A stretch of 38,726 nt of DNA from Rhizaria sp. SCN 62-66 (GCA_001724265.1 MEDY01000115.1:62001-100726), one strand, 5' to 3'; positions 18,801 to 38,726 are shown, counted from the first letter of the stretch. Notes: generated from the sequence alone by a model not told the origin. Numbers and translations: made by a program.

Positions 18801-21800
18801 CGCATGTGCCGGTCGCAGCGGTCGCTACTGCGTTCCCGGTGACCGGCGACGTGTCGTCGTTCGCCTCTGTCACCTCTAACCAGAGCCAGGGCCAGAGCCA
18901 AAGCCAGGGCTACGGTAATGGGTCCAATATGCTTGACTTTGACGACTGTGACCCTGAGTCGGACAGCAACAATAACAACACCAGCAATTCTGGCGTGAAC
19001 GCGAGTGCGGCTAGTTTGTTGGTGTTGGCTGACGCTGGTCCCTCATTGACCAACTCCAACAACAACAACAACAATTTTGCCGCGAATAACGCTGCTGCAG
19101 GCTCTGGCAGAGCTGTCCCGTTGACACAGTCACGCCGAATCGTGTTGTCGCCAGACGCGCTGGCTCTGCTCCGCGCACACGTCCTGACCGCCACGACTGC
19201 CAACAGCGGCAACAGCAACAACAACAGCAACGCTACGGCGTCGTCGTTTGTTGCGCCCGCGACGCTCCCCCTGGCCGTCATGCTCGGCTCTGCGCCTCTC
19301 TCGGCCCTGGCGCCGCCGCCGGCCCCCACCTTTGCCCAGACCGTGCAGGCGTGCCCGCCGTACCCGAGCCCCGCGGTTGCCGCCGCCAACGCCGCCGCCG
19401 ACGCCGCCGCCGCGGCCGCTGTGACCAGCGCTGGAAGTACCAGTGGCACTCATGGAGGTAGCAGTGCCCCGTCATCGGCACGCACTCTCTCTGCATCCAC
19501 TTCTGGCGCCGCTTCGACTGGCGGCAGCTCTAACTCATCGTCATCATCGTCTGTGGCGGCAGCGGCTGCGGCGGCCGCGGCGGCTGCGGGTGTGACCGGC
19601 CTGCCGAATGTCGCGCTGCTGCTCCCAGGGATGTCGACCAAAATGCAGCAAGACAGTCAAGCACTCGTCCTCGCATCGCACCAACCCAACCTCACAGATA
19701 GCGTCAACGCCAACGCCAGCGCAGGCACCAGCAGCGCCAGCTCTAGCAGCGTCTTTGGCGCGAGCGCAGTGCTGCAGCTGCCGGCGCCGGCGGCTGGGTC
19801 AAAGCTCATGTGGGGTCTCGCGTCGCTGGACCTGTCCCCGCTCGCCGAGCCCGGCGCACTGGTCGTCCGCGCCCGCTGCCCGCTGGCGACGTGCGACGCC
19901 GCCACTGTCGCTGCCATCATGGGCACGGCGCGCGCCTCAGCTTTCACTCGTGGCCACGCTGCGAACGCAAACTCTACTGCCAGTAGCAGTGGCCCCGTGA
20001 CTGCCAGTGCCAATGCGAGTGCACGCGTCAACGCTGTGAGTGTCGATGTGGCACCGGGTTTGCTTGTTGCGGCTGCGCTAGCGGGCGCGTCCGCGGCCGA
20101 CACCGCCGCGCTCGCCGCCGCTGCAGGCACCACAGCCTCGGGCGCTGCCGCTTCTCGGGGGGTCACTTCTCTCCTCACCACAATCGCGAACAACAACAAC
20201 AACAATAACGGTCACAGCGTGGGCAACACCGAGAATGCCTCCGCTGCTGCTGCCGCTGCGGCGGCGAACAGTGGCGGTGTCACAGCGTCTCCGGCCCCGT
20301 CAGCTCGCCGCGCCAACCCCTCCAGCAGCACCCCCACCGACAGCTCGAGCAGCAACAACAACGGTAGCAGCGGAAACAACAGCAGCAGCAACAGCAGCAG
20401 CTCCAACACGTCTGCGGCTGGGAGTGGCAGCGGCAACGGCGCAGGCACGGCAACGGCAACTGCGCCGGCGACTCCGGGCCCCTCTGCGCGCGCTTCGTTC
20501 GCACATGACAAGACCGCCGCCGCCGCGGCCGCCGCGGCCGCCGCGCAGGCCCAGGCCCAGGCGCAGGCGCAGGCGGCTGTGGCGGCCCGCTCCCTCTTCC
20601 AGCTCACGGGAACGGCGCTCACGGTCACTTTGACGCTCACGAAGCCGCTTGTGCCCGTGTTGCTGCCGCCGCCGGAGCCGGAGTCCGCTGCTGCGGCCGC
20701 CGCCGCCGCTGTGGCAGCTGGCGGCTTCGTCGTCCCTGCCTCTCACTCCCACTCCAACGACAGTAGCGACAAGGTGACTGTCATGGGTGATGATGCTGCT
20801 GCAGCTGATGGGAGTAACACTGCGCAGGTGAAGACGAAGAGCGTGAGTGCACGGCAGCGCATCGCCGCCGTTGCCGCGCGCGTCGCTGCGACGGTGCTGG
20901 CCACGCCCGACGCCGCCGCTGCCCTCTCTCACCACGGCCACGGCGACAGCGCCGGGAACCCGGCAGCTCACGGTAACAGTGATCTCGCAGCAACGGAGAG
21001 TGAGGGCGCGGCTGCTCTCGGTGCACTGGCGCTGGCGCTGCAGCGGCGCGGGCTCATCTCCACCTTCGCCACCGCTCTCGAGCGGCCCCTGGCCGCGCTG
21101 GCGGGCGAGCTGGCTGCGGAACGCGCTTGCGACAACGCGAACATCAATGGCAACGGTGATGATGATAATGCTATTTCGGTTGATGACTTGATCCAGGAGG
21201 CTCTCACTGCCATCGACGCTTCCCTCGACGACAACAACAACGCTAATGCTAAGACTGGGAATGGCTATAACAATGAGGCTTATCCCGAGTCGGCAAGCTC
21301 CGAGGCCGACTGTGAGCGTGAAGTCACCGCCGTTCTGACCGAAGCTTTGGCCGCGTCCCTGCGCGCGAGCGTCCAGGCCGCTCGCTGGGCCGCGGCCGCC
21401 TCCACTCTCGGCGCCGCTGCCAGTGCCGTCGCGCCAAAGACGAGGGCCTGGACCGCGTGCTTAGACCGCGTGCTGCTGGTTTCGACGGCGCGCGCTCGTA
21501 TCGTCGACACGGTCTATAACAACCACAACAACAACAATAGCAGCTGTAGCAACGGCGAGAGTGCTGCCGGTGTGTCTGCTGTGTGTATTGAGGCTGTAAC
21601 GCGCGTGAATGTCGAGCTCTCACGCGCCTACTTAGCTCTGGCCGCTGCCGCTCTGGCGTCGCAGCCCACCGCCTCACAGGTGCAGTCGCACTCGCCGTCT
21701 CAGGTGGGTAAGAAGCTGCAGGGCCCTGGCGCGGCGCGTGAAGCGATTCACCGCGCGCTCGTCTTCTCTGCACTGCCTGACCTCACTCTCTGCGGTGCCC

Positions 21801-24395
21801 TTAGCGACGGCAACGACCACCACGACAACATCAGTGAGAGGAGTCACCGTACACAGTCTAATGCTATGACTGGTTGTGTTCCGCCGTCTCTGCGTGACGT
21901 TGACACTGCTCTCGGCCTCGGCACCACTCAGCACGAGCAACAGCAGCAGCGTAGTGCCGGCGGCAATGACAGCGGCAGTGACCGTGAGTCGAACTGGGGG
22001 CATGTGATCGGCAACGTCGCCGCGCCCTCCCCTGCTCTGCTGAGCTCCCGCACGCACGCTCTCAGCTCTCTCCTGTATGACCGACAGCCGCAGTCCCAGC
22101 AGTCCCAACAGCCTCTCTGCGAGCAAGTTACCGGTGTCCAGTCAGCCGCGTACGCGCTCTGGGCTCTCGCCACGCTGGCGTTGGACGGCGTTGGCCACAG
22201 TCAACTCGCACTCTCACGCGCGCGCGCCGCCGTTGCCATTACCGCTGCACTCTACCACTGCCACCCCGATGATATCTCTCGCATCGATGTGAGTGACGCC
22301 GTGTCAACTGTGCGAGACTATCAGCTCGCGCTCGCGCTTGGGTTTTGCGCTGAGATTGCCGAGGAGGACGCTACGGCCGCCGCCGCCTACGCGTCCGCTG
22401 CGCAGGTACTCTCGCGCTCTTCCATCACTCTGTCCAGCGCAAGTAATGGCGGCGGCGGTGTGAATAATGCGGGTGTTTTGGCAGCGTCCCACGCCCAGGT
22501 TGCTTGGTTTGGACCCGCCCCCGCCCGCGGCTGCAGCTTACAGTTGGCTTTCCCGCTCGATCTCTCCGGCTGCCCCCACATTGCACTGGCGCGCACTCTG
22601 CTAGCCCTTGCCCCTGGCACTGGCGAAGCGGCGGCCGCGATTGGCGGCTGCGATCTGCGGGCGCAGGCGTTGATCCGTCTCCGTGAGTCGATTGATAACA
22701 TCGCAGCCTCTCAGGCGGGCGGCGAGCAGTCTCACTCCAGCTCGAAGAATGACGACGGTGCTATTGCTGTTTTCTTCGATGTGGACGCTGGTACTCGTGT
22801 GTATAATCATTATACCAGCGGTACATGTGAGTTCACGGCCCGCGCGTTCGGCGTTGCACCGTCTGTTGAGCTCGCTTTGGCGCTCTCCAGCGACGCCGCT
22901 GGGGCCGAGGAGGCCGTTGCGCTCGCAGAGGCCGCCGTGTCAGCCGCAGAAACAGCCGCAGACGCCGAGGCGAATGACCGTGAGCGCTCGCAAAGTGGGG
23001 GATCACAATGCGATGGGTGGAGCGCGTTTGCCGCGTATGTCGCCGTGCGCGCGCGCGCTGTGCTAGTCCGCGCACGCTTTACTCTCGCGATTACTGCGAC
23101 GATCACGGCGAACAGTGCCAGTGCGAACAACGGTTATAACAACAACGGCAGCAACGGCGGCAACAATGTCTGGAGCGCAATGTGGACTGCGCCACTCACG
23201 GCTGCCGCGGCCGCTGCCATGGACGCCGCAGCGGTGTCCGGCGCTGCGATGGCTCTGAGTGGCGAGCAAGAGGCGCTGCTGGGCGCTGTGTATGACGATT
23301 ATACGCACTATCAGGTATGTTGTTGAGCTCACTAGCAAGCCAAAAAACAATGACGTCACTTAAATATCAATATATCTCGCTCTAATATTGCGGTATTGTC
23401 TCCAAACTAAGGCGTATGAGTTAAAAGTATGGTTTATAGCCAAATAATTCAATTCTCTCACATGTTTTTATCTCGTGTTTATATATTGTTGTTTCTCCTA
23501 GACTTCGCACGAGTCCGCCGCCGCTGAGCGTGCCCGCCTCTGCTCACAGTCACAGTCTCCATCTCAGTCTCCGTCTCAGTCTGTGATCGCATTGGCCTAC
23601 GACGCCGTCACTGCCCGTGTCGGCGATTCTCCCGCTGATTTCTCCCTGCAATGCGCATTCGCACTCACATCACTCGCTCTCAACTCCAACAACACCCTCG
23701 TGAACAACAACGGCGGCGATGCGGGTGCGGCCATTGCGAGTGCGAACGACGCTCTCGTGACTGTGCGCACGCTTATCACTGGCAACGCACAGATGACACA
23801 GGCGCAGACGACGGCGGCACAGACAACAGCGGCTCACCCGCTTCCGTGGCTCCTGTGGGCCCTCACGGCCGCGCACGCCCTCACAGCGCACCGCAACTCC
23901 CAGTCACACGCACAATCGCACGCAGGCAACAACAACTCGTGCAGCCACAGCACCGCGACCGCGACTGTGCGCGCTCTGCGGGCGGAGGCCTTAGGCGCCC
24001 TCTCTCGCGCGCTGAGCTGCGATGGCGTCACTGGACAACGCCCCTTGCCGCTGGCCTGGGCGATGTACGCCGTCGTGGCGCTCGAGGGGGCGGTCGACGA
24101 GAAGGCCCTACTGCTCGCGGTCGCCGCCGCCTCCCCTGTTTGTGCGGCCTCTCCAGTTTCTGCGTCGGGCCACGCGGAGGCGGCGGCCGGGGAGAACAAG
24201 GTGGAGGCCGAGCTCTCAATCGCGCTTGCGGCGGCGGAGGCCGCTGTGAACGCCGGCATCGCAACTGACCGCGGCGACGGCGACAGCGACTTTGACTGTG
24301 GCAGTGCTGACGAGTGCAACAGGGACGGCTGGTCAGCGTGGACTGCGCTGAAGACTGTGTTTGAGGCCAGGGGGCTCTGGGAGGTTGTCCAGTAA
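15815..24395 (+). CDS. CFAP70: CFAP70 (TTC18)-like cilia/flagella-associated protein, greatly expanded by low-complexity inserts; about 2730 aa
   Basis: Exons 15815-16453, 16655-23314 and 23502-24395, with phase-0 CAG|GT...AG introns; stop TAA. Ordered blocks resemble CFAP70 as recalled: LVITVHSAENL (C2-like), IGRARLDLSSLLTG, ELTVSEVSSVP, SRRIVLSPDA, GLASLDLSPLAEPGALVVRARCPL and GTALTVTLTLTKPLVP, followed by a degenerate helical TPR-like C-terminal half. Confidence 0.65.
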
Positions 24396-24918: not shown

Positions 24919-25893
24919 TTACTCGCTAGCGGGCTTCTTCATGCCGAACAGCTCGTGAAGTTCGCCCGACTGGAACATACTGGTGACGATGTCGCAGCCG
25001 CCGACGAACTCACCGTTGACGTAGAGCTGAGGGATGGTAGGCCAGTCAGAGAAGATCTTGATGCCATCGCGAAGAACAGGTGAGTCAAGGACGTTGCACG
25101 CCTCGTACTGCACGTCTGTTGGTGTGTTGTGGTGGAAGCAATAACGAAAACGTCAAAAAGCCAAGACCAAACGAAGTGATGAGATTGAAGAACTACAAAG
25201 TGCGACTTTTGTGGCAGAAATTTAAGACTGACATTTTCCGACATGATTATCATGAACAAAAGATATATTATAGAAATAGATCGAATGTTAACAACAACCT
25301 CTCAATTTAATAAAATAGTGTTGTTTGTTATTGTTTTCTAGACGTACTGAGGTGCGTGAGGATCTGAACGACGCGGGACGAGAAGCCGCACTGAGGGGCA
25401 TCAGGCACACCCTTCATGAAGAGCACGACCTTGTTGTTGGCGACAACCTCGCCGATCTGGCGCTGCATCTCGGCCATCTCCTCCTCCTCGGCGGTGGTGG
25501 GGGCGGCGGCAGGGGCCTTCTTCTGGGGCTTGAACTGAAAACAAGGGGAGAAAGCAAAGTGGCGAAATGAAGAGACATTCGAAGTGAGCGACCAAACTTT
25601 GACAGAGGCATGCAGACTGCTTATGACAGTGTTGAAGAGTGCTGATGGGAGCGTACGGCATTGTCGGAGTCGGGGTCAACGGAGAAGGCGCGCACGGGGA
25701 TGGCGACAAGCTTCTCGAAGGAAGGGAGCTTGACGCTCTTAAGACTCTTGCTGTTAGCGATGGTCGCAGCGCTGCCGGAAAAGAGGGCGGCGGGCGCGGC
25801 AGAAGAAGCGAACCGGGCAACCGCGGTAAAGGTGGTGGCGCGGGAGAGCAGGGTCGCGGCGCGGGTGGCGCGGGAGAGACGGGAAGCGAGCAT
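24919..25893 (-). CDS. GLRX5: Mitochondrial monothiol (CGFS) glutaredoxin, Grx5/GRXS15-type; about 206 aa
   Basis: Exons 25893-25657, 25534-25348 and 25115-24919. Motifs are [17 protein letters not shown] and [25 protein letters not shown]. The N-terminus [13 protein letters not shown] is a presequence-like segment. Stop TAA. Confidence 0.95.
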
Positions 25894-26724
25894 GGTCTGT
25901 CTGTAGGGGACGGGAGCGGAGTGAGGGTGGAGAACGACGAAGTGTGAGGGTGTTGCGCGGAAGAGAGAGCATGGCGTGCGATGTAAACGCACAATTATCG
26001 TGCACAAGTCATAAAACATGCGAATATAAACGTGCAATGTCTGTTATTGACACTGAGATTGCTATCAACGGATGATAGAATGCAGGTTGAATGTGTTTCC
26101 TCAAGGCTTGAACGGCCCTGAGCAGCTGCCACAGTCATGAGCGTGGGGCAAGATGGTAAATTTGGGCAATATCAGTCTTAAGACAAGTTTCAGTCTGGTG
26201 AACACAACGCAGCTGTGGACAAAGCGTGATTTTAATTGTAGTTCTCACAGTAAGGTGTTTCATTTATTCCCGTTATCCCCTATCTAGACCCGAAAAACTA
26301 CTCTTGCGCCTCAAGCGAGCACGGTTGTGGCAGACCTATTGAGAACGCTATCGATATGCCTAGAGAAAAATAATACAATAGATGAGTACTCACAAACAAC
26401 AATCCATCGGTAAAGGTCAAATTTGACCCCCGGCACCCCGTTACCTTGTGCTAACATGCTGGGAACCGCTCCACCACATACGCTATTGTGTTGGTGGTCT
26501 ACATTGCATGCACTGCAGCCGCGAGCCGACCGTGAGCAGCTATCAAGCTGGGAGAATTGCAATGACGAGTTCTCAATGTATATCCATACGATGCAAGTGT
26601 AGATTAAAAACCGGAGTGTCTACGTTGCGTTTTATTTTCATCTCAAATTGCAGCTCTCAACCACGTGCTCACATTGCTACACGACTCTTGTCGACATTCA
26701 ACTGTCCAAAGCGGGAGCCTCGAC

Positions 26725-29700
26725 ATGCAAGTCTCGCGCGACCTAGACCACCCTTCTCTGGGGCCGCGTCTCGGTCTCGTGTTGCTTCTCGTCGCCCTCG
26801 TGTTTTTTTCTCTCATAGGTTTCCTTATTCGATCCGCAACGCCTCCAACGGGACCGAATATCGAACGCATCGTGCTCACAGCGCTGCCCTCACTCACACC
26901 AGAAGACTATGACCACAACTCTTCTAACAGCAACAGCAACAGCGACAGCGACGACATTTATACTCTCGCCGGCGACGTTGCCTCGTCTCTTCTTACCACC
27001 GCTACGACCGTCTCTGGTCCGATCTCCGACCTAGCGCGTTTTCTCGCATCCGCCTCGCTCTCGCCAGAAACCACCACCGCCGCCACTTCTGCATCTAACC
27101 CTAGCTCGAGTTCCACCTCCTGGCAACAGCACGCGGTCGCTGCATTCACGCGGACCAACGCTAGCGCCGAGCTCGACCTCCTCCCTCCCGAGCTCTGCCC
27201 GACTTGTTACAGCGCCGCCGCTTTCCACCGCTCTATTCAGCCCATCTGCGCTCTGCCGGCCCCGCAACGCTCCGCTGGTTTGTCCAGCGACCACCCGATC
27301 CTGTGGCACACCAACCAGGGCACGTATCGCGCCCCGGCCGCGTGGTCCACCGCCGCGTCTGTCATCACCGCTGGCGTGCGGACGGGGAAGCCGCTGTGTC
27401 GACACTGCTTGGGCGCAGCGCGGTGCCAGTCGGCCGCCAGTGCGGCCGTGCACAGCGCTTTGCTACCGCCTGCAGTCGCGCGGCACGAGCGTGATTACCT
27501 GCCGTTTTCCCCCGCGTCTGCCGCCAACAACTACCTCATGAACAGTAACAGCCATACCGCCGCTGCCGCTGGCTTGACTGCCAACTCGGGTGATGACGTG
27601 AACGGTAATAGTGGCGAAGGCGCTAGTAACAACGCTGCGTCGTCATTTCCACAGCAGCCGACATTACTTAACGGTTGGCGGTCGATTGACGGGTCCCGGT
27701 TCGACATTGACAGCTGCGTCGACGCCATCGACGTCGTGTACACGTGGGTCAACGGTTCTGCCCCCTCCGTCCGCGCGTCCCGCGTCGCTGCTCGCCGCGG
27801 GCTCGGCAGATATGTTTCCCCCGTCTTTGCCTCTCTGTTCCCGCCGCCGGCGCCTGATCAGAACTCGCTGGGGGACAACCGGTTCCGCGATTCCGGCGAG
27901 CTGCAGTATTCGATGCGATCGATCCTCAAGCACGCGCCCTGGGTGCGACGGATCTTCCTCGTCACTTCGGGTGAAACGCCGTCCTGGCTCAATACGAGCC
28001 ATCCTAGCGTCACAGTCGTGCCACACAGCGTGATCTTCAAGGACGCGAAACGGAACGCGCCGTCTTTCTCGTCAAGCGCGATCGAGTCGGCGCTGCACCG
28101 CATTCCGGGCCTTTCTGACAACTACATCTACGTCAACGACGACGTGTTCTTCATCAAACCGGTCGAACAAGAGGCATTTTGGTCGCCTGCGAGCGGATTG
28201 CTGCTGGAGCGCGCGGGTTGGCAGTTGCAAACGTGCAATGTTGGCTGTGAAACGCAGCATGTCGGCGACGGCGTCTGCCATCCGGCATGCATGACCGAGG
28301 CGTGCCAGTGGGATCTGGGCGACTGCGAGCGCAACTACCTCCGCGCGCCCGCTCCCTGGGAAGTCTACGACATGTTGCTCGCATTGGGCCCGTCAGGGCA
28401 GCCGCCGCAGGGGTCGTAGCTGTGGAGCTATCTCCCGCGATTCCCGCTGAGGCCGATCTCGCAGGACGAGCTGCAGTGGGCGACGACGGACGTCACGACC
28501 ACGGCTGCACTCAACCGCAAACGTGACAGCTTGAACCGCGTCGTGAACATCAATCTCAACAGCAACAACAATGGCAAGTGGGGGCGCTCACCATCCTTCC
28601 GCCTAGCGAGGGATGCCAATGGGAACATGGCGTTTGGTGGCAGCAGCAGCAGCGGCAGAGACGGCGTGCAGCCGCCGTTTGACAGCGACGAAGTGACGGA
28701 GAATGACCGCAGCGCAGTTACGCCACGCTACTCATATACTCCTATCTCTGATAACAACAATCATGCTGACGGTAACGACGAGTCAGAAGCTGAGTCTGTC
28801 GCAAGTGATAATAACGGCGACTTTGAAGATGATGTTGTGTACACAGTTGGCAGTTATGCGCCGTTTTACTCCGCAGCCCGCTACAACGCGGGCCTCTACA
28901 ACCCTGCCCTTCACAGTAGCAGTGTTAACAGTAGCGACAGCAAGAAGTCAAGCCGCAGCAGTGGCAGTGGCAGTGGTAAAACGCGACAGCGCGCGCACCC
29001 TCTTCTGCGCCGCCTTGCTGAGCTCGGTGTGCTGATGCTCGCACGGTCTAATCTGGCCGATAACGCGACCGCCGAAGCTGGTGTCTCTGCAGCCCTGCTC
29101 ACGGTCACTCGCGCGAATGCAAACTCTGATTCCAGCTCCGACGCGGGGAAAAGTGGCGCGTCCGACACTGCGATGCCGACAGTGGCTGAGATCGCTGGCC
29201 TCTTTTGCGCTCCAGGCTGTCTGACTGCCTGGGTCGGCGACGGCGTCTGCGACGACGCTTGCCACGTTGCAGAGTGCGCGTTTGACAGCCGGGACTGTGA
29301 GGTCACGTTTGCTGACGCGCTGGCCTCCGTTATGCCGCCGCCGCCGCCGTCTTTGACCGACTCCGCGTCCACCTCACCGGGTGTGACGTCGATGGGTGCC
29401 GAAGCCGCGCCGACAGAGACTGCTCGCAGTGGTGGCAAATCGGGCAGCAGCTCTAACTCTATCGTCGCTGGCTCTAGCTCTGGCTCTGTTTTTACTGGCT
29501 CAGGTGCGAACAAGGCCAAGGGTCTCCAGAGGTTTGCAGCACTCTCAGTCGCGACCGGTGGCGCTGACCGCAGTGCTGTTACCGCAGACCTCGACTCTGG
29601 CTCTGCGTTCGACTCGAACTCGGCCTCTAACGACGATGTCGATGATGACAGTAATGACAGCTCTGTTGTTGCTGAGAGTAGTCGTCGTGAGTCTGTGAAG

Positions 29701-32700
29701 TCTGCTATCTTCCGCGCTCTCACTGCGAGGACCGCAAGCACAGACGGCAACAGCAACAGCAACAGCAACAGCAACGGTAACGGTGCAGGCGCTCCTTTTG
29801 TAGCGTCCCCGTCGCTAAGCCAGAGTGAGCGCCGCCGCCGCCGCCAGGCGCTGTTCCTCTAGCAAGAGCAGCAGCAGGGCCAGCAGCGCACCCACCGCCA
29901 ACGTCAGCAGCAACAGCAGCAGCAAAAACAGCTGCCGCAGCTGAACCGTCTCACTCAGCTGCCGCGCACCGTCGCCGCGCGCGTGATGCGTATGATTGCG
30001 AAGCAGAGTGCGGTGTTCACTGCTCTGCACGCGCTGATGGGGGAAATCCCGGCCTGGGGCGCGGCGGTGATCCCCGAGCACGGCAACAGGAAGCACCTGC
30101 ACGACACGCACAGGGTCGTCATGGCGAACCCGTTCACGGTCGGTCCGCTCGATTTCGACGCCAGCGGGGGCAGCAAGAGCAACGCTGGATCAGTTGTCGC
30201 CAGCGGCAGCGCTGACAGCGTGCCGAGCGCCGGCGCCCTGGCGCAACTGCAGCAACAGCAGCAGCAGAGGAAGGCTATGCGTCGCCGCAGCCACGGTACC
30301 AGCCACGTCAGTGGCGACGGGAGCTCGAGCGACAGTGGCAGTGGCATCCATAGCCGTCGCCGGAAGGTGGCGCGGCGGGCTGGCTTCACCGCGCCGTCGG
30401 CGAACCGCGTGTTCGAGCTCTCCGTGCGCCGCTCCTTCACCGGCGTGTACGGTTGGCTCACGGGCGCGCTGGCGCTGTCTTACCACAACCGGCCCGAGGG
30501 GCTGCGACACGACCACGATTATGCGGCCCGCGCCCGCGACTCGGCGGCCAACGCGGCGGTGCAGGCAGCGGAGGAGGCGGCAGAGCTGGCGAGGCAGCAG
30601 CAGCTGCAGCAGCAGCAGGAGCAGGAGCAGGAACAGGAGCAGGCGCAAGCGGCGGCTGGGACTGCGGCAGGGGTGCAGGTGCATGTGCAGATGAAACAAC
30701 AGTCTCGGACTGCAGGTGCGCGTGCTCGCAGTGGCCATCATTACAACTTCACGACTGCGGCGATAACGGGTAGCTCTGCGTTGCTGCCGCTTGCGTCGAT
30801 GGGGAGTGACCAGTGGCCTGTGGACAACTTCCCCACGGTCGGCGGCCTAACTTCCCCCGTCTCCTTAGTCCGGGGCCACTGGTGGACGTTTTTGCAATCG
30901 CGGCACGTGCTGCGGCTCACTCGTCCGCAAAACAACAAGATCGTCGAAGCAACCCACAAGTTTGTTCTGTCGCGTACGCAGTCGCTGATGCGCAAGTTGA
31001 TGGTCAATCCGATGAAAACCCCGATTCCGCATAAGCCGCAGGTCGGCAACAAGCACGTGTACTCGCGCATGCAGTCTCTGCTGCCCGACGAGTACAAAAT
31101 CCTCGAGTCCCACCGGTTCCGTGACCCCTACGACATCCAGTTCGGCTACGCGCTCGCTGGTTTCACCCTCAACGCCAAGCACCCTTCGCTGCACTCACTC
31201 GCACAGTCGCTCTTCGGCGCGCATGACACTGACTGCAACGGCGTGCTTGTCGGCGCAGAGGTCGAGGCCTTGCTCAAGGATCTCTTCACACCGCGGAGCC
31301 TGCCGTCGTACGTCATCCCTGCCGCACGCGAACGCGTCGCGCGGTGGCCGTTCAAGGCGCCGCTGACGCCGCCGCTGTGCCGCACGCCCAAAGAGGCGGC
31401 GCTGGGACGGGCGATGCGGATGCGCGCGCGCAACCTGGCTCTCGCCAGCGCCAAAAGCAGCGGCAACGGCAACGGCTCCGGTACCGGTAACGCCAACGAT
31501 GATAGTCGCTCTTTGGGGCCGAACATCGGCACCTCAGACCGGTCTGCCACTGTGACAAGTGCGGATGTGGAAGCGATGCTTCGCCCGTGGGATCTAGCGT
31601 GCGTCGTCAAGGGCACCGCCCCCGCCACCGACGCCGACGCCGGCGCTGACGATGACGCTTCCGATTCCCCACCTACTTCAGCCGGCTCGAGCGCCAACTC
31701 CGACTCTCCCAGCGCCAGCGCCAGTGCGAGTGCGCGTGTCGTGGGAACTGGCAGCTCTGCGCGCGCCTCCGTGTGGCACACCATGCTGTCCACAGTGGCG
31801 ACCCTGCCCGGCTCCACCCCCGAGACGCCCCTCGTCGTCGGTCACCTCGCGCAGGACCCTCTGCTTCAGGCTATGATGCGCGACGCCCCCTGGCGCGACT
31901 TCGCGCCGGGCCCCAGCGCGGGCTCGGTCAAACTCTCAGCTGCGGCGCTGCGTGCCGGCATCGCCGCCGCCAGCGGCGCGGGTGCCAGTGGTGCGCCTGC
32001 GGTCATTGGCACGGGGCGCGGTATCTATGCGAACCTCGACACGAGCGCTACCCTTGCTACCACCAACACTGCTTCTGCGACTGCCAATGGTGATACCACC
32101 GCCGCGAACAGCAACGGTGCTGCACATGCAGATACTGGCAATATTGGTGCTGCTGCTAACATTGATCCTGGTACCAGTCAATTCAAGCCGCAATCTACAG
32201 ACAGCTCGAGCTTCACTACAACAGCGAGTGAGAGTGATGGGTCAGCTTCGGCTGTTCCAGTCATGACGTTCGTCCAGCTCATGGAGTGGTCTCTGGCGCG
32301 CGCGGTGATGCAGCAAATCCAGCTTCCTTACCGTCCTATGTACCACGCACACACGCCTCTGCGCGGCAGCTCAGTCGCGTACATGGGCATTTCGGATGAC
32401 AGTTTGAACGATTTGTACGGGCTGTTTAACAAGGTGGAGACGATGTTTACGGCTGACCCGCGGCAGCGCGCGTTTGCGTGCCTGAACGACGCCATCCAGG
32501 TACGAACTAAAACAAGTAAACAACAAAATCTGCTTTGATTTTTTTATGCGTTGGTCTTTTATTGCATAAATTTGTCTCATATCAACTTATAATCATTTGA
32601 TTGCGGTGTTTCTTTTGCTGTGTTTTAGGGTGATGTACCGCATAATTACGGCGACATGATGAAGTTTACGTTCGAAAAGGCGTTCCCCACCCCTGCGCCA

Positions 32701-33672
32701 TGGGAAAAGCGTGGGCTCCCCAAGCGCCCTCCGCCCGTGATGCCCTCTAAGCCGCTGGCTGACGACGTCGTCGCGGTCGCGACTGACACGGCCGTGCCGG
32801 GCGGTGACATCGCTCCTGTTGACGCCAACGCCGTGACTGGTGGTGCGAGCGCTCCCGTTGATTCTAGCACCGTCACCGCTGCTGCTGACACGCGCGAGAG
32901 CACATCCGTTGACGATACTAGCGCGTCCACTGGCACGAGCGGCACTCTTGTTGTTGATGCGACGACTGCTTCTGCTGACTCGGACGCTCCGGTCGACACC
33001 AGCGCCACTGTTGACACTGCCTCCGCTGCTTCTGGTAGCACCAACTCTGCCAGTGATGGTAAGAGTGCGGTTGACGCAGAGTCTTCAGAGTCGAGCGTTG
33101 TTGCTTCTGGCTCTGACGCCGACGCTAACGCCAATGCTGATGCTAACGCCGACAATGATCCTAGGTCGGATTCTACATCTGACTCGAACGCTGGTAATGA
33201 CGCCGATGGTAATGGTGCCAACAATGATGCTGTTGCTGAGACGGATGCAATCGCCGGCTCTGACGTCAACGCTCAGTCCGATTCTGCGTCTGTAACAGGT
33301 GACGGCGAAAACAACACCGACGGCGGTGACGATGGCAACGGCGACAACAAGGACGACGAATAGGGTGGTGATGGTGACGGCGATGACAGCGATTCGCGTG
33401 AAAACACCGAAGAAACCACTGAACAGGCTGATAACACTGACGGAGTGTTGCCCCCCATCGCCGACTTGCCGAGAAGCGTTACTATCGACGCTGATGCTGA
33501 CAGCAAGCTTCCAGCTCCCGATCGCGGTGCCAATGACGCCAGCGCTGGCGACAGGGCTAGCACTGATGGTGGTATCACTGTTAGTGACGCCGTGCCACCT
33601 TCTGTCGATCCCAACTTTACTCCTGATCCATCAGACACTGCTACAGCTCCAACTTTGTCTGGGAGGAACTGA
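26725..33672 (+). CDS. GNPTAB: GNPTAB-like Stealth-family N-acetylglucosamine-1-phosphotransferase, about 2272 codons if three in-frame TAG codons are read as sense
   Basis: Exons 26725-32499 and 32629-33672. Domain order is N-terminal TM, CR1 IDVVYTWVNGS, CR2 (RFRDSGELQYSMRSILKHAPWVRRIFLVT...IYVNDDVFF), two LNR repeats (GDGVCHPAC, GDGVCDDAC), CR3 (PIPHKPQ...HRFRDPYDIQF), EF-hand DTDCNGVL, CR4 (FACLND...FPTPAPWE) and an acidic tail. In-frame TAG at 28417, 29860 and 33361; final stop TGA at 33670. Confidence 0.85.
28417..28419 (+). other. In-frame TAG no. 1 in the Stealth gene (PPQGS*LWSYL)
   Basis: The frame continues without stops from 28420 into ORF 28531 (offset 111 nt = 37 codons), which carries the second LNR repeat. 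Confidence 0.9.
29860..29862 (+). other. In-frame TAG no. 2 in the Stealth gene (QALFL*QEQQQGQQ)
   Basis: The frame continues from 29863 through a poly-Gln tract into ORF 29983 (offset 120 nt = 40 codons), which carries CR3, the EF-hand and CR4. Confidence 0.9.
33361..33363 (+). other. In-frame TAG no. 3 in the Stealth gene tail (NKDDE*GGDGDGDD)
   Basis: The same Asp/Gly-rich composition and codon style continue in frame for 102 codons to TGA 33670, where AT-rich non-coding sequence begins. It could alternatively be the true stop. Confidence 0.7.
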
Positions 33673-36100
33673 AATCTAAGCTGTCATCAAACAGTAACTT
33701 CTTTCCACCGCCTCTTCATCACGTTCGAAACGCTCTACGTTTACGTTCGCTTTAAATTAGAAGAAATGTCCGCTGTGTCAATTCATTTTGTTGCTTGTTT
33801 ATTTGTTTCGTTTCTATGGTGATCCCACAGCTTCCCTTTCTTGAGTCAGTCCGCGCACCGGTTCTGATTGCTCACATCAGTCAGCAGTTTCAGCGTGCGC
33901 CGCGCGGGCTACAGTTTCGCACTTTTATGTTGTTGTTTTTTTTGTCTCGTGGTTTATTTATGTACCGTTTGACTTGTTCATATGTCATTTTTCTCGGTTG
34001 TGATTTGTCGTGATATGTGATGACCTCTTTTAAGAACTCGGTGCGTATCTTCCGCACTACCTCTCCGATAACCGTATTGCTATCATTTCGCGCCACAAAT
34101 TCCGTGTACTTCTCCAACAATCCGATTTGCCCCCTCTGTCTCCCTCCTCGAAGCGTATTGCCTGTTATTTAAAATTCTTAAACTTAGGTTTGCTTTTTAG
34201 TTCCTGACGGCTCAGTGTGCTCGTTATGTAACGTCCCCCTTGTCAAACTCTTGCTCGGGGCGGTCACGCATGCTGATTGCCGCGGGCTATTAGATTTCGC
34301 ACACCCCATGTTATGTCTGTTCAGGCTTTGTCCAGATGTTGCCTGACTGATTACGCAACTCTCGCGTATGTCGTGGCACTTCTTGATATTGCACTGCCGC
34401 GCTCAGCATTCGCATTGATTCGCCCTAGTAGTTGCTCTTCCTTTAAAAACAATAATGTCTGTTGTACAACATCGTTTCTCATTCTGCCTGTTATGTTCAA
34501 AACTATCTCCAAGTTTTAAATGCTTGAAAGAGAAAATGTTATTTTGTAGACTTCATTTTCCCCGCTTGCTCATTGTCACTGCAATCTACAATTGCGTTCT
34601 CGACGTATCATCATGGCTGTGTCACGTGACACTCTTGAGGATTGTGGAGTACGCAGAATAGAGGTCTCGGCAGTCACATTTTCATCATCGTTCACAACAA
34701 CAACCTCCGTACGTTTCCGTTCCTACTGCATCCACTCACGCGCACAAAGAACCGAATCACACAAAAATCATTCCTAACATTTCATTGTTACGCTCACACC
34801 CAATGCATCCCTTCAATCCCCCTTAGCTCCTCTTTCCCAGCTCCCCGCACATCCGTATCGTTTGGTTCTGTTTCTAGTTTTTCTTCCCCCAAGTTACGTT
34901 TTCCCGTCTATGTCTTCATCATCATCCCATTCGCAGACCGCGCACAAGTTGCTTCGGGTCGCACTGCTGCAACCGAATCAACGCGACTGTGTCTACGTTT
35001 TGCAGTTGTTTACAACAAAACTTCGCACACACACACGCACATTTGCCACGCTTGTCAGACTTCTCTCCCTAATCACGCTGTCCATTGTTTTTCGTTTTCT
35101 TTTTCGGTGGGTATATCATCACCATGTTACGCTCTGTAGTGTTCTGTATTGTCTTCTATTCACTGCCTCCATTTCTGTGTCGTGTCTTTGCGCAATACGC
35201 CGTCATCACCTCCAATCGCGCCTACGCGGGCGCGGGCGGTGCTCTCACTCCGTATCCAAGTCACAACACTCACTAAACAGACAACCTAGCTCGTTATTAA
35301 GTTGAACCCAACCAGCATCAGCATGCTTTGTTTGTGTTCGATTCAGTAGGAACATTATGTATACTGTATCATCACTATCCTCGTTTGTTTTGAATGCAGT
35401 CGTTTTGACTCTGTTTGTTACCCACAGAGCAGCGCCTGCACGTCAACACGTCTAAATGCTCTCTTTAGACCCTTTGTTTATGATGGTAATACGTACTAGC
35501 TTCTGTTCATAGCCGTGCGTCGCCGCGTTTGGATATGCACAGCATGTCATGTACACGTGGGATTGCACAAATGCGTGTGCGTGTCGGTCTCGTGTGTCTG
35601 TTTTCCGATGTTATCAACATCTTTTCTTGATTATCTGTGTTTTTCCCCATCCCTTTTCATCGCGACGTGTGAGCATGCGTCATTCGTAGCAACAAACCAG
35701 ATCAACTCGCACTCACAGTTCGCGTCATCTGTTTTATGGGTTGGCTTCATCAATAGAGAACAGTTAATGTTGTCATGCAACCAAAATGTGTCAGCCTCTT
35801 ATCTTAAAGAGTCCTATAATGCTGTAATAAGCTTACGAAGTAATTTATACTGCATTTTATTACGAGGCTTATGAAGAGTACCTCCAAGAAAAGAAACAAA
35901 AAAGAGAACATGAACACCAAAATATCACAGAGACAATAGTACAGAGACAATAGTACAGAGACATTACGCAAAACAAGATCAAAAGACATTAAGGAGGAGA
36001 AAGTGAAGATGGAGATGCAAAATGTGGTAGTGCATCTTTTAAACACACAAAAAACGCAGACAAAACCTGAAGTGAGTTCACCTCAGAGTTCTTTCCACGC

Positions 36101-36120
36101 ACACACACACACACACACAC
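36101..36120. repeat. (AC)10 microsatellite
   Basis: Directly visible in the sequence. Confidence 0.9.
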
Positions 36121-37814
36121 GACGCACATAGTGATCTTACACGTCGCAGGCGGTCGCTGTTGCAGCAGTCGTGCGTCTCTGAGTAGCAGTGTGCATCTTA
36201 TGCTTCCTACTGCGATTCATACGACGGCAACGCGCGACAAGACGGACGGCTAGAGACGTGAGAAGCGTGTGATCAATGTGATACTGGGAAATTGTTGGTA
36301 GTGGTATCATTATAATCATCATACACAAGAGCTACCACGTTTTTGGCAGTAGTCTATAAAGAATCCCACCTATCAATGAGATGCCTTATGATTCAAGTGC
36401 GAAAACATGCGCACGAGCTGAAATAACGCTTCAGCCCGCTTTGCCTTAGGAAGTATTGAGTGTTGTGACACCGGGTGTGTGGAGGAACGGGAGGTGCGAA
36501 AAGGAAGTTCAATGCTTTGACGTCGAATGGGAGAGAAGAAAACAAAGACAAAACGAAAATGATGAAACAAAGCAACAGCAACAACAGCAAAACACAAAAA
36601 GAAACTCACAAAAAACAACAACGGGGGATGTGCGGTAACAAGGAGACATAAAACAAACACTGTTGCTGGAGAATACGTGTGAAAAGTGGATGGAGGAGCA
36701 GAAATAAACACACATTTAAGACGAAAGCGACGACGACGTAAAACGAAACAAAAAAATAAAATGCATAGCCAAAAAAAGGAATATTATGAACAACACAACA
36801 TGTTGAGTGCGATACCAAGACGTGAAAGTGCGATAACGATTGAGTGGGTGGAGTGAGCGAAAGCGTGAGCGAACAGAAGGCCAAAATCGAAGTGAATCAA
36901 TCGTATTCGTCAACTTACTACGATGGTAGCAAGGCGATAATGTTAATATTTAATCTAACACATAAGCACAGGCGGTCGGGAACTTGTCAATGACGAGAGG
37001 TTTGGTTATAGTGACAAGTACCCGTGAGGCACGCGTACGCGGTAACATGCGTGCGCAGTCAGCAGAGAAAAGCAAGCTTAGGAGCATGTGAAATCAAACA
37101 CAACCACAAGCGAAGAAACGCATGACAACAAAGGCAGCAAAGAGACTACCTCAGTCTCGGCCGCTGATGCTGCTATTATCACAATAGTCGTCGCAGTTCG
37201 CTATGTAATTGTGTTGATGCCGATCTCAATCGGTTTTTTCCTCCGTCTCGTATCACGATAAAACAGAGCAAAGCACACAAAAGAGACATAAAAGAAAAGA
37301 AATTAAAAAATAGATCGAAAAAATCGTCTTTAAAAAGTTCCAGCACAGACAGAAATGGACTGTTTCAGATTGCACATAAAGTGCTAACACAGAAACAGAG
37401 AGGCGAACTAGACAAGAGACAAAAACGTATGCGAATAGAGTGAAAGAGCATATCAAAAGAAACGGAAAATCCAGAAAAGAAACAATCATCAACAAAATTA
37501 CAAATCAACATAACATAATCAGAAGCTGTTTTGATTTCGAAACGCTGTCGCGTCAATTCATATGAATTCAAGTGAAATGAGTGCGTTTAGCTGTTTTGAA
37601 AGGGAAACGTAAAAAAAAAAAAGCAAAGCTAGCTCAAACAGCAATCACTGCAGAGATATCGTCTTCGTAACACAGTCTCATACCAAACTGGGATGACAGA
37701 CAGCGCGACTAGAAACTGACAAGTCAGAGCAATTGTGCAAGAGAGTAGAAATGCATGTCGTATTACTGACTGTGTTGCACCAGCAGGCAGTACTCACAGT
37801 CAGTTGATGGTAAC

Positions 37815-37850
37815 ATGATGATAACATCCTGTGCATGATGTTATCATCAT
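37815..37850. repeat. Perfect 14-bp inverted repeat, 8-nt loop
   Basis: ATGATGATAACATC-ctgtgcat-GATGTTATCATCAT. Confidence 0.85.
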
Positions 37851-38088
37851 TTTTTTCCTTGATTGTTGTTGCTGCTGCTGTTGTTTGCGTTATGAAATTG
37901 ATGTTGGCGTTATGCCGTTGGTGATTTTGTCGTAGTCGGAGTTGCTGTTGTTAATATTGATGATGTTAAAAACAATATTTGCCTGGAAGTGAGTTTGGTT
38001 ATTGAGAGTTTGTTGATATAGCTGTAATTAATATTGTTGCAATCTCACGCTCATGAATGAAGAAAACAAAACAAAAAAAAATACACAC

Positions 38089-38121
38089 AGTAGTATAGGG
38101 CCGCTTCTACCCTATACTACT
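38089..38121. repeat. Perfect 12-bp inverted repeat, 9-nt loop
   Basis: AGTAGTATAGGG-ccgcttcta-CCCTATACTACT. Confidence 0.85.
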
Positions 38122-38197: not shown

Positions 38198-38726
38198 TCA
38201 CAGCACAGCTGCATCGGCCTCGGTGCCCGCAGTGGCCGCGTCCGCGCCCGCGTCAGGCGCGTCGCCGCCGTCGCCGCCTTCGGCCTCGGCTTCGACAGCG
38301 CTGGGCTCGGCGTCTCCGTCTGCGTCGTGGGGCTCGTCGTCCCCGCGGTCGCCGTTGTCGCCGTTGTCGTCCACGACAGGCAACGCCTGTTCACCGGTGG
38401 GTTTCCCGTCGTCGCCGGCGGCCGCGGGGCCCTTGCGCTGTTCGGAGTCCAGCTCCCAGGGCGCGGGCGTCGGAAACATCGTCTCGAAGGTGTCCGCAAA
38501 ACGGTCCGCGTAGTCCGGTGGCGCGTCCCCTTCGATCGCGTCGTTGAGACATACAAACGGTCGGTTGCGGCGTCGGCCCGCGAACATGGACTGGATGCGG
38601 GTAAAGAGCGCGTCCGGGTCTTCTAAGTGCTTGTTGGAGATGCCTAAGTAGGACACCGACGAGCCCTGGAGGGGGGACCGCGCGTGGTACAAGGGACGGT
38701 ACGGCAAGTGCATTTGCATCATGACA
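38198..38726 (-). CDS. 3' end of a second GNPTAB-like Stealth paralog (CR4 plus acidic tail); the 5' part lies outside the window
   Basis: LPYRPLYHARSPLQGSSVSYLGIS...FVCLNDAIEGDAP...FPTPAPWE aligns colinearly with LPYRPMYHAHTPLRGSSVAYMGIS...FACLNDAIQGDVP...FPTPAPWE of the upstream gene. Stop TGA. Confidence 0.9.
   Translation of the reverse strand, partial: VMMQMHLPYRPLYHARSPLQGSSVSYLGISNKHLEDPDALFTRIQSMFAGRRRNRPFVCLNDAIEGDAPPDYADRFADTFETMFPTPAPWELDSEQRKGPAAAGDDGKPTGEQALPVVDDNGDNGDRGDDEPHDADGDAEPSAVEAEAEGGDGGDAPDAGADAATAGTEADAAVL

What the first reader, a model, noticed from the sequence alone, without database searches (positions are those of the whole stretch)
26725..33672. UAG appears to be a sense codon (best fit Gln) while UAA and UGA remain stops: candidate non-canonical nuclear genetic code
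Seen in sequence: four ORF-track fragments (26665, 28531, 29983 and, after the intron, 32656) plus the 33445 tail form one reading frame. The only breaks are three TAG codons, with no frameshift and no internal TAA or TGA. Stealth CR1-CR2 lie before the first TAG and CR3-CR4 after the second, and all motifs look intact. All seven visible gene ends use TAA (4) or TGA (3), counting this gene as ending at TGA 33670; none uses TAG. TAG no. 2 opens a CAG/CAA poly-Gln run. Established: CR1-CR4 together form one Stealth catalytic domain, so a functional enzyme needs translation through TAGs 1 and 2. UAA and UAG are normally reassigned together; uncoupled UAG-only reassignment is known from few nuclear codes (Iotanema spirale UAG=Gln, an uncultured rhizarian UAG=Leu, some phyllopharyngean ciliates). 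Inference: this organism decodes UAG as Gln, perhaps at an early, rare-usage stage. Leu cannot be excluded, because none of the three sites is at a conserved position.
Basis: partly seen in the sequence, partly recalled or inferred. Interest (0 to 1): 0.9.

Follow-up and report, generated by a model that had tools for sequence, protein, structure and literature searches.

The report
In-frame UAG codons, likely read as sense
A sugar-phosphate transferase gene of an uncultured wastewater microbe with a nucleus carries three in-frame UAG "stop" codons, and a related microbe carries another, so this lineage probably reads UAG as an amino acid.

Summary
One reading frame (26725-32499, a 129-nt intron, then 32629-33672; 2,273 codons) encodes a GNPTAB-like Stealth protein. 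It is broken only by TAG at 28417, 29860 and 33361 and ends at TGA 33670. Conserved domains lie on both sides of the TAGs. The TAGs sit in GC-rich coding sequence, not in the AT-rich introns of this genome, and coding signal continues past the third TAG. Seven gene ends use TAA (4) or TGA (3), none TAG.

New evidence comes from two contigs of a related organism in another metagenome (L001, L002; 61-66% identical protein, 5% apart from each other). They share an in-frame TAG at a different site, inside a conserved block. Third-codon-position changes are in excess between them. None of 15 more distant loci has a stop.

Against: about 6,600 other codons in the window and a 1,905-codon paralog have no TAG. 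"TAG only" is not significant by itself (about 0.2). No tRNA, release factor or whole genome could be examined. No listed RNA contig crosses a TAG.

Verdict: UAG is most likely a rare sense codon, with UAA and UGA as stops (0.65). The amino acid is unresolved; Gln is only weakly favoured. This would be a new, non-ciliate member of a known kind of code variant.

The parts
26725..32499 (+). Exon 1 of the GNPTAB-like Stealth gene (ATG 26725 to the 5' splice site); contains TAG 1 and TAG 2
27727..27804 (+). Stealth CR1 (residues 335-360)
   Evidence: Pfam PF17101, E 1.2e-5, 25.4 bits, just under the curated cut-off of 27.2
27880..28191 (+). Stealth CR2 (residues 386-489)
   Evidence: Pfam PF11380, E 2.2e-39
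28228..28329 (+). LNR (Notch) domain 1 (residues 502-535). Its first residue, Gln (CAA), is the column where the relative L001/L002 has TAG
   Evidence: Pfam PF00066
28417..28419 (+). In-frame TAG 1 (codon 565), context tcg TAG ctg, local GC 0.71
   Evidence: Conserved residues follow it (S568, R572, P574, L575...)
29206..29298 (+). LNR domain 2 (Cys828-Cys858), between TAG 1 and TAG 2
   Evidence: Invariant Cys/Asp/Gly columns in alignment A1; Pfam reports 2 LNR stretches
29860..29862 (+). In-frame TAG 2 (codon 1046), context ctc TAG caa gag cag..., opens a Gln-rich run, local GC 0.75
31030..31158 (+). Stealth CR3 (residues 1436-1478), downstream of TAG 2
   Evidence: Pfam PF17102, E 0.0017, 18.7 bits, below the curated cut-off of 24.2; many invariant columns in A1
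32500..32628 (+). Spliceosomal intron, 129 nt, GC 0.29, GTACGA...TTTTAG, phase 0; splits CR4
   Evidence: junction confirmed by alignment to the paralog
32629..33672 (+). Exon 2: rest of CR4 (...FPTPAPWE), a long acidic low-complexity tail, TAG 3, then the terminal TGA at 33670-33672
33361..33363 (+). In-frame TAG 3 (codon 2170), context gaa TAG ggt, local GC 0.57
   Evidence: The 102 codons after it score +32.6, above all 1,632 non-coding control windows
38198..38725 (-). C-terminal 175 codons of a convergent GNPTAB-like paralog (unsplit CR4), ending in TGA at 38198-38200
   Evidence: Pfam PF17103, E 1e-12

Best explanation
The organism is an uncultured, GC-rich, intron-bearing eukaryote found in wastewater and bioreactor communities, and not a ciliate by its genome style. 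It most likely translates UAG as an amino acid and terminates at UAA and UGA. UAG appears to be a rare codon here, seen so far only in poorly conserved linker or tail segments of one long, low-complexity GNPTAB-like gene and in its homolog in a related organism.

Shown: the three TAGs are real DNA, lie in exon-like sequence, and are flanked on both sides by conserved, still-coding sequence. A relative carries a different in-frame TAG that has been kept while the gene evolved under constraint.

Inferred: decoding is by a tRNA with a CUA anticodon, with a release factor that no longer recognises UAG well. Neither could be looked for. The amino acid is unknown. Gln is weakly favoured because TAG is one transition from CAG, one TAG site aligns with Gln in the closest homolog, and another borders a Gln run. 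Leu, Glu and Trp are not excluded.
For: 1. The spliced frame of 2,273 codons has 3 TAG, 0 TAA and only the terminal TGA; the other two frames have 45 and 130 stops.
2. CR1, CR2 and LNR1 lie before TAG 1, LNR2 lies between the TAGs, and CR3 and CR4 lie after TAG 2. The alignment with paralog P0254 and homolog P0005 has invariant columns on both sides of TAG 1 and TAG 2.
3. Local GC at the TAGs is 0.71, 0.75 and 0.57. The introns I delimited have GC 0.27-0.36 and are 129-185 nt long. Every other in-frame TAG in a TAG-as-sense ORF lies in an intron or forms its 3' splice site: 9940, 10321, 10822, 16652, 23499 and 32626.
4. After TAG 3 the frame keeps the same three-base periodicity. It scores +32.6, against a maximum of 21.0 among 1,632 non-coding windows, and 0 of 5,000 shuffles reach it. 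The signal is lost after TGA 33670.
5. L001 and L002 come from a JGI metagenome and are 66% and 61% identical to the window protein. Both have TAG inside a conserved block (AAWKL[TAG]NCNSGCDTQ). The spliced L002 frame of 717 codons is otherwise open.
6. L001 and L002 differ at 58 of 1,098 aligned bases: 11, 17 and 30 at codon positions 1, 2 and 3, with 22 synonymous and 26 non-synonymous codon changes. The shared TAG has therefore persisted under purifying selection.
7. As a control, 0 of the 15 other metagenome loci (L003-L017) have a stop inside their matches.
8. Of 7 gene ends, 0 are TAG (4 TAA, 3 TGA). The ceramidase end is supported by the matching C-termini of relatives.
9. Both differences of the 2025 strain (run X2) inside this gene are synonymous third-position changes.
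10. An expected neutral decay that produced 3 nonsense hits would mean about 130 substitutions, since nonsense is 2.3% of substitutions. No frameshift is seen.
Against: 1. TAG is absent from about 6,600 codons of the other genes in the window and from the 1,905-codon paralog P0254, whose longest contig has the same length (151,102) as that of the window's ORF. By my own arithmetic on these counts, three random hits would all fall in one gene about 3-4% of the time.
2. Three of three breaks being TAG is expected about 20% of the time under random nonsense mutation.
3. Zero TAG among 7 gene ends is weak: about 0.13 if TAG were 25% of stops (my arithmetic).
4. No tRNA gene was found in the window.
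5. L001 carries a 1-base deletion relative to L002. It may be an assembly error or a sign of decay.
6. The organism has at least three GNPTAB-like paralogs, which raises the prior chance that one copy is dispensable.
Confidence: 0.65

Rival explanations
1. Gene-specific recoding in an organism with the standard code. The UAGs of this gene would be removed at the RNA level, for example by A-to-I editing of UAG to UIG (read as Trp), as in the restorative editing of premature stop codons in filamentous ascomycetes. Alternatively they would be bypassed by programmed readthrough, as a way to keep the enzyme scarce or stage-specific.
For: All three TAGs of the window cluster in one gene, while about 6,600 other codons and paralog P0254 have none. 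The homolog in a relative also has a TAG. Fungal editing prefers a U before the edited A and so often hits UAG (abstract start of PMC11156358, search listing). 71 such premature-stop genes are described in Fusarium graminearum (abstract start of PMC10776026, search listing). Two of the three window TAGs are followed by C, which I recall as a leaky context.
Against: The TAG sites differ between the two organisms, and the four contexts share no motif. The 61-nt folds around the four TAGs are not unusually stable, with z-scores of -0.66, -0.82, -0.50 and +1.37, and the A lies in a hairpin loop in only 2 of 4. Three successive low-efficiency readthroughs would leave almost no full-length enzyme (inference). 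Nothing suggests an ascomycete: introns are 129-185 nt and the gene has LNR domains.
Confidence: 0.12
2. A young pseudogene. One redundant copy of an expanded GNPTAB-like family has picked up nonsense mutations, and TAG is simply the commonest nonsense outcome in a CAG-rich, GC-rich gene.
For: There are at least three paralogs in the organism. 58-61% of possible nonsense hits give TAG. TAG is absent from all other genes examined. L001 has a frameshift relative to L002.
Against: There is no frameshift and no TAA or TGA in 2,273 codons, although three nonsense hits imply roughly 130 substitutions under neutrality. Conserved motifs downstream of the TAGs are intact. Coding periodicity is intact after TAG 3. 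The two strain differences in the gene are both synonymous. The relative's TAG is shared by two variants whose differences are enriched at third positions. Its 717-codon spliced frame is otherwise open.
Confidence: 0.13
3. The TAGs are removed by splicing of short, in-frame, atypical introns.
For: The gene has one genuine in-frame intron (129 nt) that contains three stops.
Against: GC around the TAGs is 0.57-0.75, against 0.27-0.36 in the introns I delimited. There is no GT...AG pair with the T-rich tract seen at the real introns. Residues conserved in homologs flank TAG 1 closely.
Confidence: 0.03
4. Assembly or sequencing error.
For: The window comes from a metagenome assembly, and low-complexity repeats in this gene break many contigs.
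Against: Contigs of X1 bridge all three TAGs without differences, and X4 (another study) bridges TAG 3. The 564-aa ORF ending at TAG 1 is on 4 contigs. L001 and L002 carry their TAG independently.
Confidence: 0.02

Closest known systems
UAG-only nuclear reassignments in Iotanema spirale (UAG=Gln) and the rhizarian exLh (UAG=Leu), Panek et al. 2017, PMC5304391 (abstract and passages read)
   Same: In-frame UAG only; UAA and UGA are kept as terminators; the organisms are not ciliates. In exLh, UAG is rarer in highly expressed genes, which the authors read as less efficient decoding.
   Different: Those cases rest on hundreds of UAGs in dozens of genes (384 in 71 genes for exLh) and on conserved alignment columns. 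Here there are 3 sites in one gene plus 1 in a relative, none in about 6,600 other codons, and the amino acid is unresolved. No tRNA or eRF1 data are available. The paper's supplementary codon tables could not be seen.
[quoted passage not shown] 2024, PMC11687900 (abstract read)
   Same: UAG alone is reassigned, UAA is the preferred stop, and the discovery came partly from environmental assemblies.
   Different: Those are ciliates with widespread UAG usage and identified suppressor tRNAs. This genome is GC-rich with 129-185-nt introns and multi-kilobase genes, and its UAG usage is very low.
Restorative A-to-I editing of premature UAG codons in filamentous ascomycetes (PMC10776026, PMC11156358; search listing and abstract starts only)
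   Same: Genes that look like pseudogenes, with in-frame UAG clustered in particular genes of a genome that otherwise uses the standard code.
   Different: There is no sign of an ascomycete, no hairpin signal at the sites, and no RNA evidence of editing.
GNPTAB (GlcNAc-1-phosphotransferase alpha/beta), the Stealth family: the host gene, not the phenomenon
   Same: CR1-CR4 and two LNR domains in the usual order. The best named relatives are annotated GNPTAB in oomycetes, Diplonema, Thecamonas and animals at 40-53% identity.
   Different: The protein is much longer (2,272 residues) because of low-complexity inserts and has a roughly 550-residue acidic tail after CR4. There are at least three paralogs in the organism.

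Membership tests
UAG-only stop-to-sense nuclear genetic code | In-frame UAG in many otherwise intact, conserved protein-coding genes | tested here: inconclusive
   There are 3 sites in one gene and 1 site in the homolog of a related organism. There are 0 in about 6,600 other codons of the window and 0 in paralog P0254. The genome is not held.
UAG-only stop-to-sense nuclear genetic code | UAG is not used as a terminator | tested here: inconclusive
   0 of 7 gene ends are TAG. The sample is too small: about 0.13 by chance if TAG made up 25% of stops.
UAG-only stop-to-sense nuclear genetic code | UAA and UGA remain terminators and are absent in frame | tested here: met
   Gene ends are 4 TAA and 3 TGA. 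There are no TAA or TGA codons in the training exons (5,439 codons) or in the 2,273-codon Stealth frame before its end. The TGA end of the ceramidase gene matches the C-termini of its relatives.
UAG-only stop-to-sense nuclear genetic code | UAG positions match one amino acid in conserved alignment columns | tested here: inconclusive
   The three window sites fall in unalignable linkers. The relative's site aligns with Gln (CAA) in the window but with Pro in 136 of 144 family members.
UAG-only stop-to-sense nuclear genetic code | A cognate tRNA with a CUA anticodon | not testable with these tools
   ARAGORN found 0 tRNA genes in 38.7 kb and Rfam found 0 matches. The rest of the genome is not available.
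UAG-only stop-to-sense nuclear genetic code | Altered eRF1 recognition of UAG | not testable with these tools
   There is no eRF1 gene in the window and no genome is held.
UAG-only stop-to-sense nuclear genetic code | The mature mRNA keeps UAG (neither spliced out nor edited) | not testable with these tools
Stealth / GNPTAB family (host gene) | CR1, CR2, CR3 and CR4 in order | tested here: met
   Pfam finds CR2 at E 2.2e-39, with CR1 (25.4 bits) and CR3 (18.7 bits) below their curated cut-offs. CR4 is shown by a 41%-identity alignment across the splice junction to a paralog whose CR4 scores E 1e-12.
Stealth / GNPTAB family (host gene) | LNR (Notch) repeats between CR2 and CR3, as in eukaryotic GNPTAB | tested here: met
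   PF00066, 2 stretches, E 9.9e-12.
Neutral pseudogene | Frameshifts and mixed stop types; loss of conserved motifs and of codon periodicity | tested here: not met
   There are no frameshifts and no TAA or TGA. The motifs are intact. Codon periodicity is retained after TAG 3.
Fungal-type restorative A-to-I editing | The edited A lies in the loop of a stable hairpin | tested here: not met
   Fold z-scores are -0.66, -0.82, -0.50 and +1.37, and the A is in a loop in 2 of 4 minimum-energy folds. This is a weak test.

The most novel reading that the evidence does not exclude
An unrecognised, non-ciliate eukaryotic lineage of engineered and waste waters has captured UAG as a sense codon and still uses it very sparingly, in about 1 of 3,000 codons and only in tolerant linker regions. 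This would be a natural snapshot of an early, low-usage stage of stop-codon reassignment with UAA and UAG uncoupled.
Probability: 0.55. Interest if true: 0.8.

Novelty: new member of a known kind. Interest (0 to 1): 0.68.

Why it matters
Reassignment of UAG alone, with UAA kept as a stop, was long thought to be constrained. It is documented in only a handful of lineages: Iotanema, the rhizarian exLh and three phyllopharyngean ciliate lineages (PMC5304391, PMC11687900).

A further independent case would add a data point on how often UAA and UAG uncouple. This one would come from a GC-rich, non-ciliate organism in which UAG is still very rare, so it could show what an early stage of codon capture looks like. 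Such stages are usually only inferred.

There is also a practical consequence. Standard gene callers cut this organism's genes at UAG: the protein collection holds the 564-aa fragment that ends at TAG 1. Proteins of this lineage in metagenome catalogues are therefore likely to be fragmented.

Tried and rejected
**Whole genome, earlier findings and Atlas.** No genome is held. The Atlas did not accept the query.

**More DNA of the same organism.**
- Single-protein scans of the metagenome, viral and prokaryote-genome collections found no relative.
- The alignment scan of prokaryote genomes returned 80 loci. Every record title is a bacterium, almost all actinobacteria.
- The viral scan returned one distant locus at 35% identity.
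- None of these helps.

**tRNA and RNA families.** There are 0 tRNA genes and 0 Rfam matches in the window.

**RNA across the TAGs or the intron.**
- The listed poly-A RNA contigs of run X5 lie inside the gene at 26850-27231, 30084-30510, 30801-31052, 31560-31958 and 32686-32950, with no differences. None reaches a TAG or the intron.
- 3,016 pieces were not shown, and DNA may be present in that library.
- Transcription, splicing and editing at the TAGs therefore remain untested.

**Amino-acid inference.** The alignment of the spliced protein with P0002 and P0005 places all three sites in gapped, non-conserved stretches.

**Hairpins at the TAGs.** No signal was found.

**Taxonomy.**
- Named best hits of the Stealth domain are spread over oomycetes, Diplonema, Thecamonas, Andalucia and animals at 40-53% identity.
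- The ceramidase has only unnamed close relatives, at 71% and 61%.
- The lineage is not placed.

**Literature.** I found no paper on a UAG reassignment in a wastewater eukaryote. The searches were (full-text terms UAG, genetic code, wastewater, eukaryot, stop codon reassignment). This covers only the held library.

**Correction.** I first took P0002 (64% identity) for a related species. It is a paralog of the same organism. Its cluster mate P0254 lies on a contig of 151,102 bases, the same length as the longest contig holding the window's ORF, and P0002's longest contig (113,409) matches that of the window's ceramidase.
Full report
**What is there**

Between 26608 and 33672, frame 1 is broken by TAG 28417, TAG 29860, TGA 32536, TAA 32590, TAG 32626 and TAG 33361, and it closes at TGA 33670. 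The three stops at 32536-32626 lie in a 129-nt stretch of GC 0.29. This stretch starts GTACGA right after ...LNDAIQ and ends TTTTAG right before GDVPHNY.... Removing it gives a junction that aligns without a gap to the unsplit C-terminus of a second Stealth gene on the minus strand at the window's end (38198-38725; Stealth CR4, E 1e-12).

The spliced gene has 2,273 codons, with 3 TAG, no TAA and the terminal TGA. The other two frames of the same stretch have 45 and 130 stops.

Pfam finds CR1, CR2 and two LNR domains, then CR3. CR1, CR2 and the first LNR precede TAG 1. The second LNR lies between the TAGs. CR3 and CR4 follow TAG 2. The protein is a GNPTAB-like GlcNAc-1-phosphotransferase homolog. 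Named relatives are 40-53% identical.

**Are the TAGs real DNA?**

The window comes from an uncultured organism seen in bioreactor, wastewater and activated-sludge runs of several studies. No whole genome is held.

- Contigs of run X1, which may be the source sample, bridge all three TAGs without differences.
- Run X4, from another study, bridges TAG 3 and the intron without differences.
- Run X2, from a third study, reaches TAG 1 with only 18 letters on one side, so I do not count it as bridging.
- The 564-aa ORF that stops exactly at TAG 1 is on record on 4 contigs.
- No difference at a TAG appears among the 40 listed rows of other letters; 101 rows were not shown.

An assembly error is therefore unlikely.

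**Are they in introns?**

No. I traced seven AT-rich gaps of 129-185 nt between coding blocks, with GC 0.27-0.36. Six have clear GT(A/T)(C/T)G... and T-rich ...YAG ends: 32500-32628, 9788-9942, 10310-10460, 10649-10824, about 23315-23501 and 4394-4567. The gap at 14415-14591 is similar.

The 61-nt GC around the three TAGs is 0.71, 0.75 and 0.57.

When TAG is read as sense, every other in-frame TAG in a high-scoring ORF is either a 3' splice site (9940, 10822, 16652, 23499, 32626) or lies inside an intron (10321).

**Is TAG 3 simply the true stop?**

Homologs end 1-15 residues after the APWE motif, so I considered this. The 102 codons from TAG 3 to TGA 33670 keep the base composition by codon position of the tail before it. 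For example, G at position 1 is 0.49 against 0.56, and A at position 3 is 0.12 against 0.04.

These codons score +32.6 with a codon model trained on other genes of the window. That is the 37th percentile of true coding windows and above all 1,632 windows from intergenic DNA (maximum 21.0). None of 5,000 shuffles reaches it. Right after the TGA the periodicity is gone. The frame is, or very recently was, coding through TAG 3.

**Gene ends**

My gene models give seven ends:

| Gene | Strand | Stop codon and position |
|---|---|---|
| Cation-efflux gene | - | TAA 1554 |
| Four-exon gene, about 6880-11325 | + | TAA 11323 |
| Ceramidase | - | TGA 13225 |
| Long gene 15380-24395 | + | TAA 24393 |
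| Mitochondrial-type glutaredoxin | - | TAA 24919 |
| This gene | + | TGA 33670 |
| Paralog | - | TGA 38198 |

If 15380-16510 is a separate gene, which is uncertain because its 5' splice site is not obvious, an eighth end is TGA. The ceramidase end is confirmed by relatives that end at the same motif. Zero of seven is weak evidence: about 0.13 if a quarter of stops were TAG.

**How much does "only TAG" mean?**

Little by itself. From this gene's codon content, 58-61% of all single-base nonsense changes give TAG, so three of three has a probability of about 0.2.

The lack of other damage means more. Nonsense changes are 2.3% of possible substitutions. Three of them under neutral decay would imply on the order of 130 substitutions, and with them several frameshifts. 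There are none. The conserved columns downstream of the TAGs are intact. Both differences of the 2025 strain inside the gene (27276, 32382) are synonymous.

**Independent evidence from a relative**

A scan of JGI metagenome contigs with an alignment of this protein, its paralog P0254 and homolog P0005 returned 17 loci. The two closest are L001 (1,216 bp, 66%) and L002 (2,557 bp, 61%), both from one metagenome. Both have an in-frame TAG between CR2 and the first LNR cysteine...LERAAWKL[TAG]NCNSGCDTQFLGDG.... The match to the window's protein runs straight through it.

L002 has two AT-rich introns like those of the window. Its spliced 717-codon frame is otherwise open. It is closest to the window's gene (60-62%), then to P0254 (about 42-56%) and P0005 (40-45%).

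L001 and L002 differ at 58 of 1,098 aligned bases: 11, 17 and 30 at codon positions 1, 2 and 3, with 22 synonymous and 26 non-synonymous codon changes. The third-position excess is significant by my chi-square on these counts (about 9.8, 2 degrees of freedom). The TAG they share has therefore been carried along while the gene was under purifying selection.

None of the other 15 loci, all more distant (28-50%), has a stop in its matches.

One caveat: L001 has a 1-base deletion in a C-run relative to L002, plus a 6-base gap. This may be an assembly error or real damage.

**What argues against a genome-wide reassignment**

- About 6,600 other codons in the window have no in-frame TAG.
- Paralog P0254 (1,905 aa) was called as one ORF. 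Its longest contig has the same length, 151,102, as that of the window's ORF.
- Three random hits would all fall in one gene only about 3-4% of the time, by my arithmetic on the gene lengths.

So either UAG is a rare codon concentrated in tolerant, low-complexity parts of a weakly expressed gene, or something is specific to this gene. In the rhizarian exLh, UAG is also depleted in highly expressed genes (PMC5304391, passage read).

**Rival explanations**

- **Gene-specific RNA editing or programmed readthrough.** The model is the restorative UAG-to-UGG editing of ascomycetes (PMC10776026, PMC11156358; listings and abstract starts only). I could not test this with RNA, because the listed RNA contigs do not reach a TAG. 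Folding around the four TAGs shows nothing unusual, and the four contexts share no motif.
- **Pseudogene.** A paralog family makes this more plausible a priori, but the absence of frameshifts, the intact motifs and the relative's conserved TAG argue against it.

**Which amino acid?**

Unresolved. The three window sites lie in gapped, non-conserved stretches of the alignment with P0002 and P0005. The relative's site is alignable. There the window has Gln (CAA) and P0254 has Thr, while 136 of 144 family members have Pro.

TAG 2 precedes QEQQQGQQ. TAG 3 sits in ...NKDDE-x-GGDGDGDD, which would suit Glu as well. Gln is the mild favourite; Leu, Glu and Trp remain open.

**What the organism is**

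Not placed. It is a eukaryote, with spliceosomal introns, LNR-bearing GNPTAB paralogs and a glutaredoxin with a mitochondrial-type presequence. Its exons are GC-rich and its spacers AT-rich. TAA is used as a stop and never occurs in frame. That rules out the common UAA+UAG=Gln codes. Together with the long genes and the 129-185-nt introns, it does not look like a ciliate (this last point is inference).

**Comparison with what is known**

UAG-only reassignment with UAA and UGA as stops is known from:
- Iotanema spirale (Gln) and the rhizarian exLh (Leu) (PMC5304391);
- three phyllopharyngean ciliate lineages (Leu once, Gln twice) (PMC11687900, abstract).

This would be a further, independent, non-ciliate member with unusually low UAG usage. 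I found no paper describing it in the held library. The supplementary tables of these papers were not available to me.

**Verdict**

Translation of UAG in this lineage is the best explanation (0.65), ahead of gene-specific recoding (0.12), a pseudogene (0.13), splicing (0.03) and artefact (0.02). The decisive data all lie outside what could be reached here: the rest of the genome, a tRNA with a CUA anticodon, eRF1, RNA reads across the sites, and peptides.

Noticed in passing
window 38198-38725 (-), with proteins P0002/P0254: The organism has at least three GNPTAB-like paralogs: the gene of the finding, a convergent neighbour whose last 175 codons are in the window, and P0254 (1,905 aa). P0254's longest contig has the same length as that of the window's ORF. 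The neighbour's CR4 is not split by an intron.
   Followed up: partly
window 6880-11325 (+): This is a four-exon gene with no Pfam match. Its product starts MGCGAS..., which looks like an N-myristoylation/palmitoylation signal (recalled). The ORF track's apparent TGA end at 9833 is inside an intron; the real end is TAA 11323.
   Followed up: partly
window 15380-24395 (+): Three long ORFs with no Pfam match are separated by AT-rich gaps of about 165 and 185 nt. The second gap has clear GTATGT...CCTAG ends, so at least 16655-24395 is one gene of more than 2,500 codons. Whether 15380-16510 belongs to it is unclear.
   Followed up: partly
window 33700-38100: A 4.4-kb AT-rich spacer (GC 0.37-0.45) lies between the two convergent Stealth genes. 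It has no ORF with coding score and no Rfam match. One poly-A RNA contig of run X5 lies at 34245-34557, so it may hold long 3' UTRs or an unannotated transcript.
   Followed up: no
window 24919-26043 (-): A three-exon monothiol-type glutaredoxin gene with an N-terminal presequence ([16 protein letters not shown]...), probably mitochondrial, ending in TAA.
   Followed up: partly
L001 about 855-900 versus L002 about 740-785: The two variants of the relative's gene differ by a 1-base gap in a C-run and a 6-base gap. As assembled, L001 is frameshifted and then hits a TGA.
   Followed up: partly
window 26926-26953, 28640-28658, 29905-29932, 31457-31709, 36571-36591: Trinucleotide-repeat, low-complexity stretches in this gene attract hundreds of unrelated metagenome contigs. 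They produce false joints and loose ends in the read-laying tables, so depth figures over these bins are meaningless.
   Followed up: no
protein P0005 (unnamed; Logan and ENA sources): This 59%-identical homolog from another organism or paralog starts just after the position of CR1, so it lacks CR1. That is what a gene caller would produce if an in-frame stop or an intron lay there. Its DNA could not be fetched.
   Followed up: no
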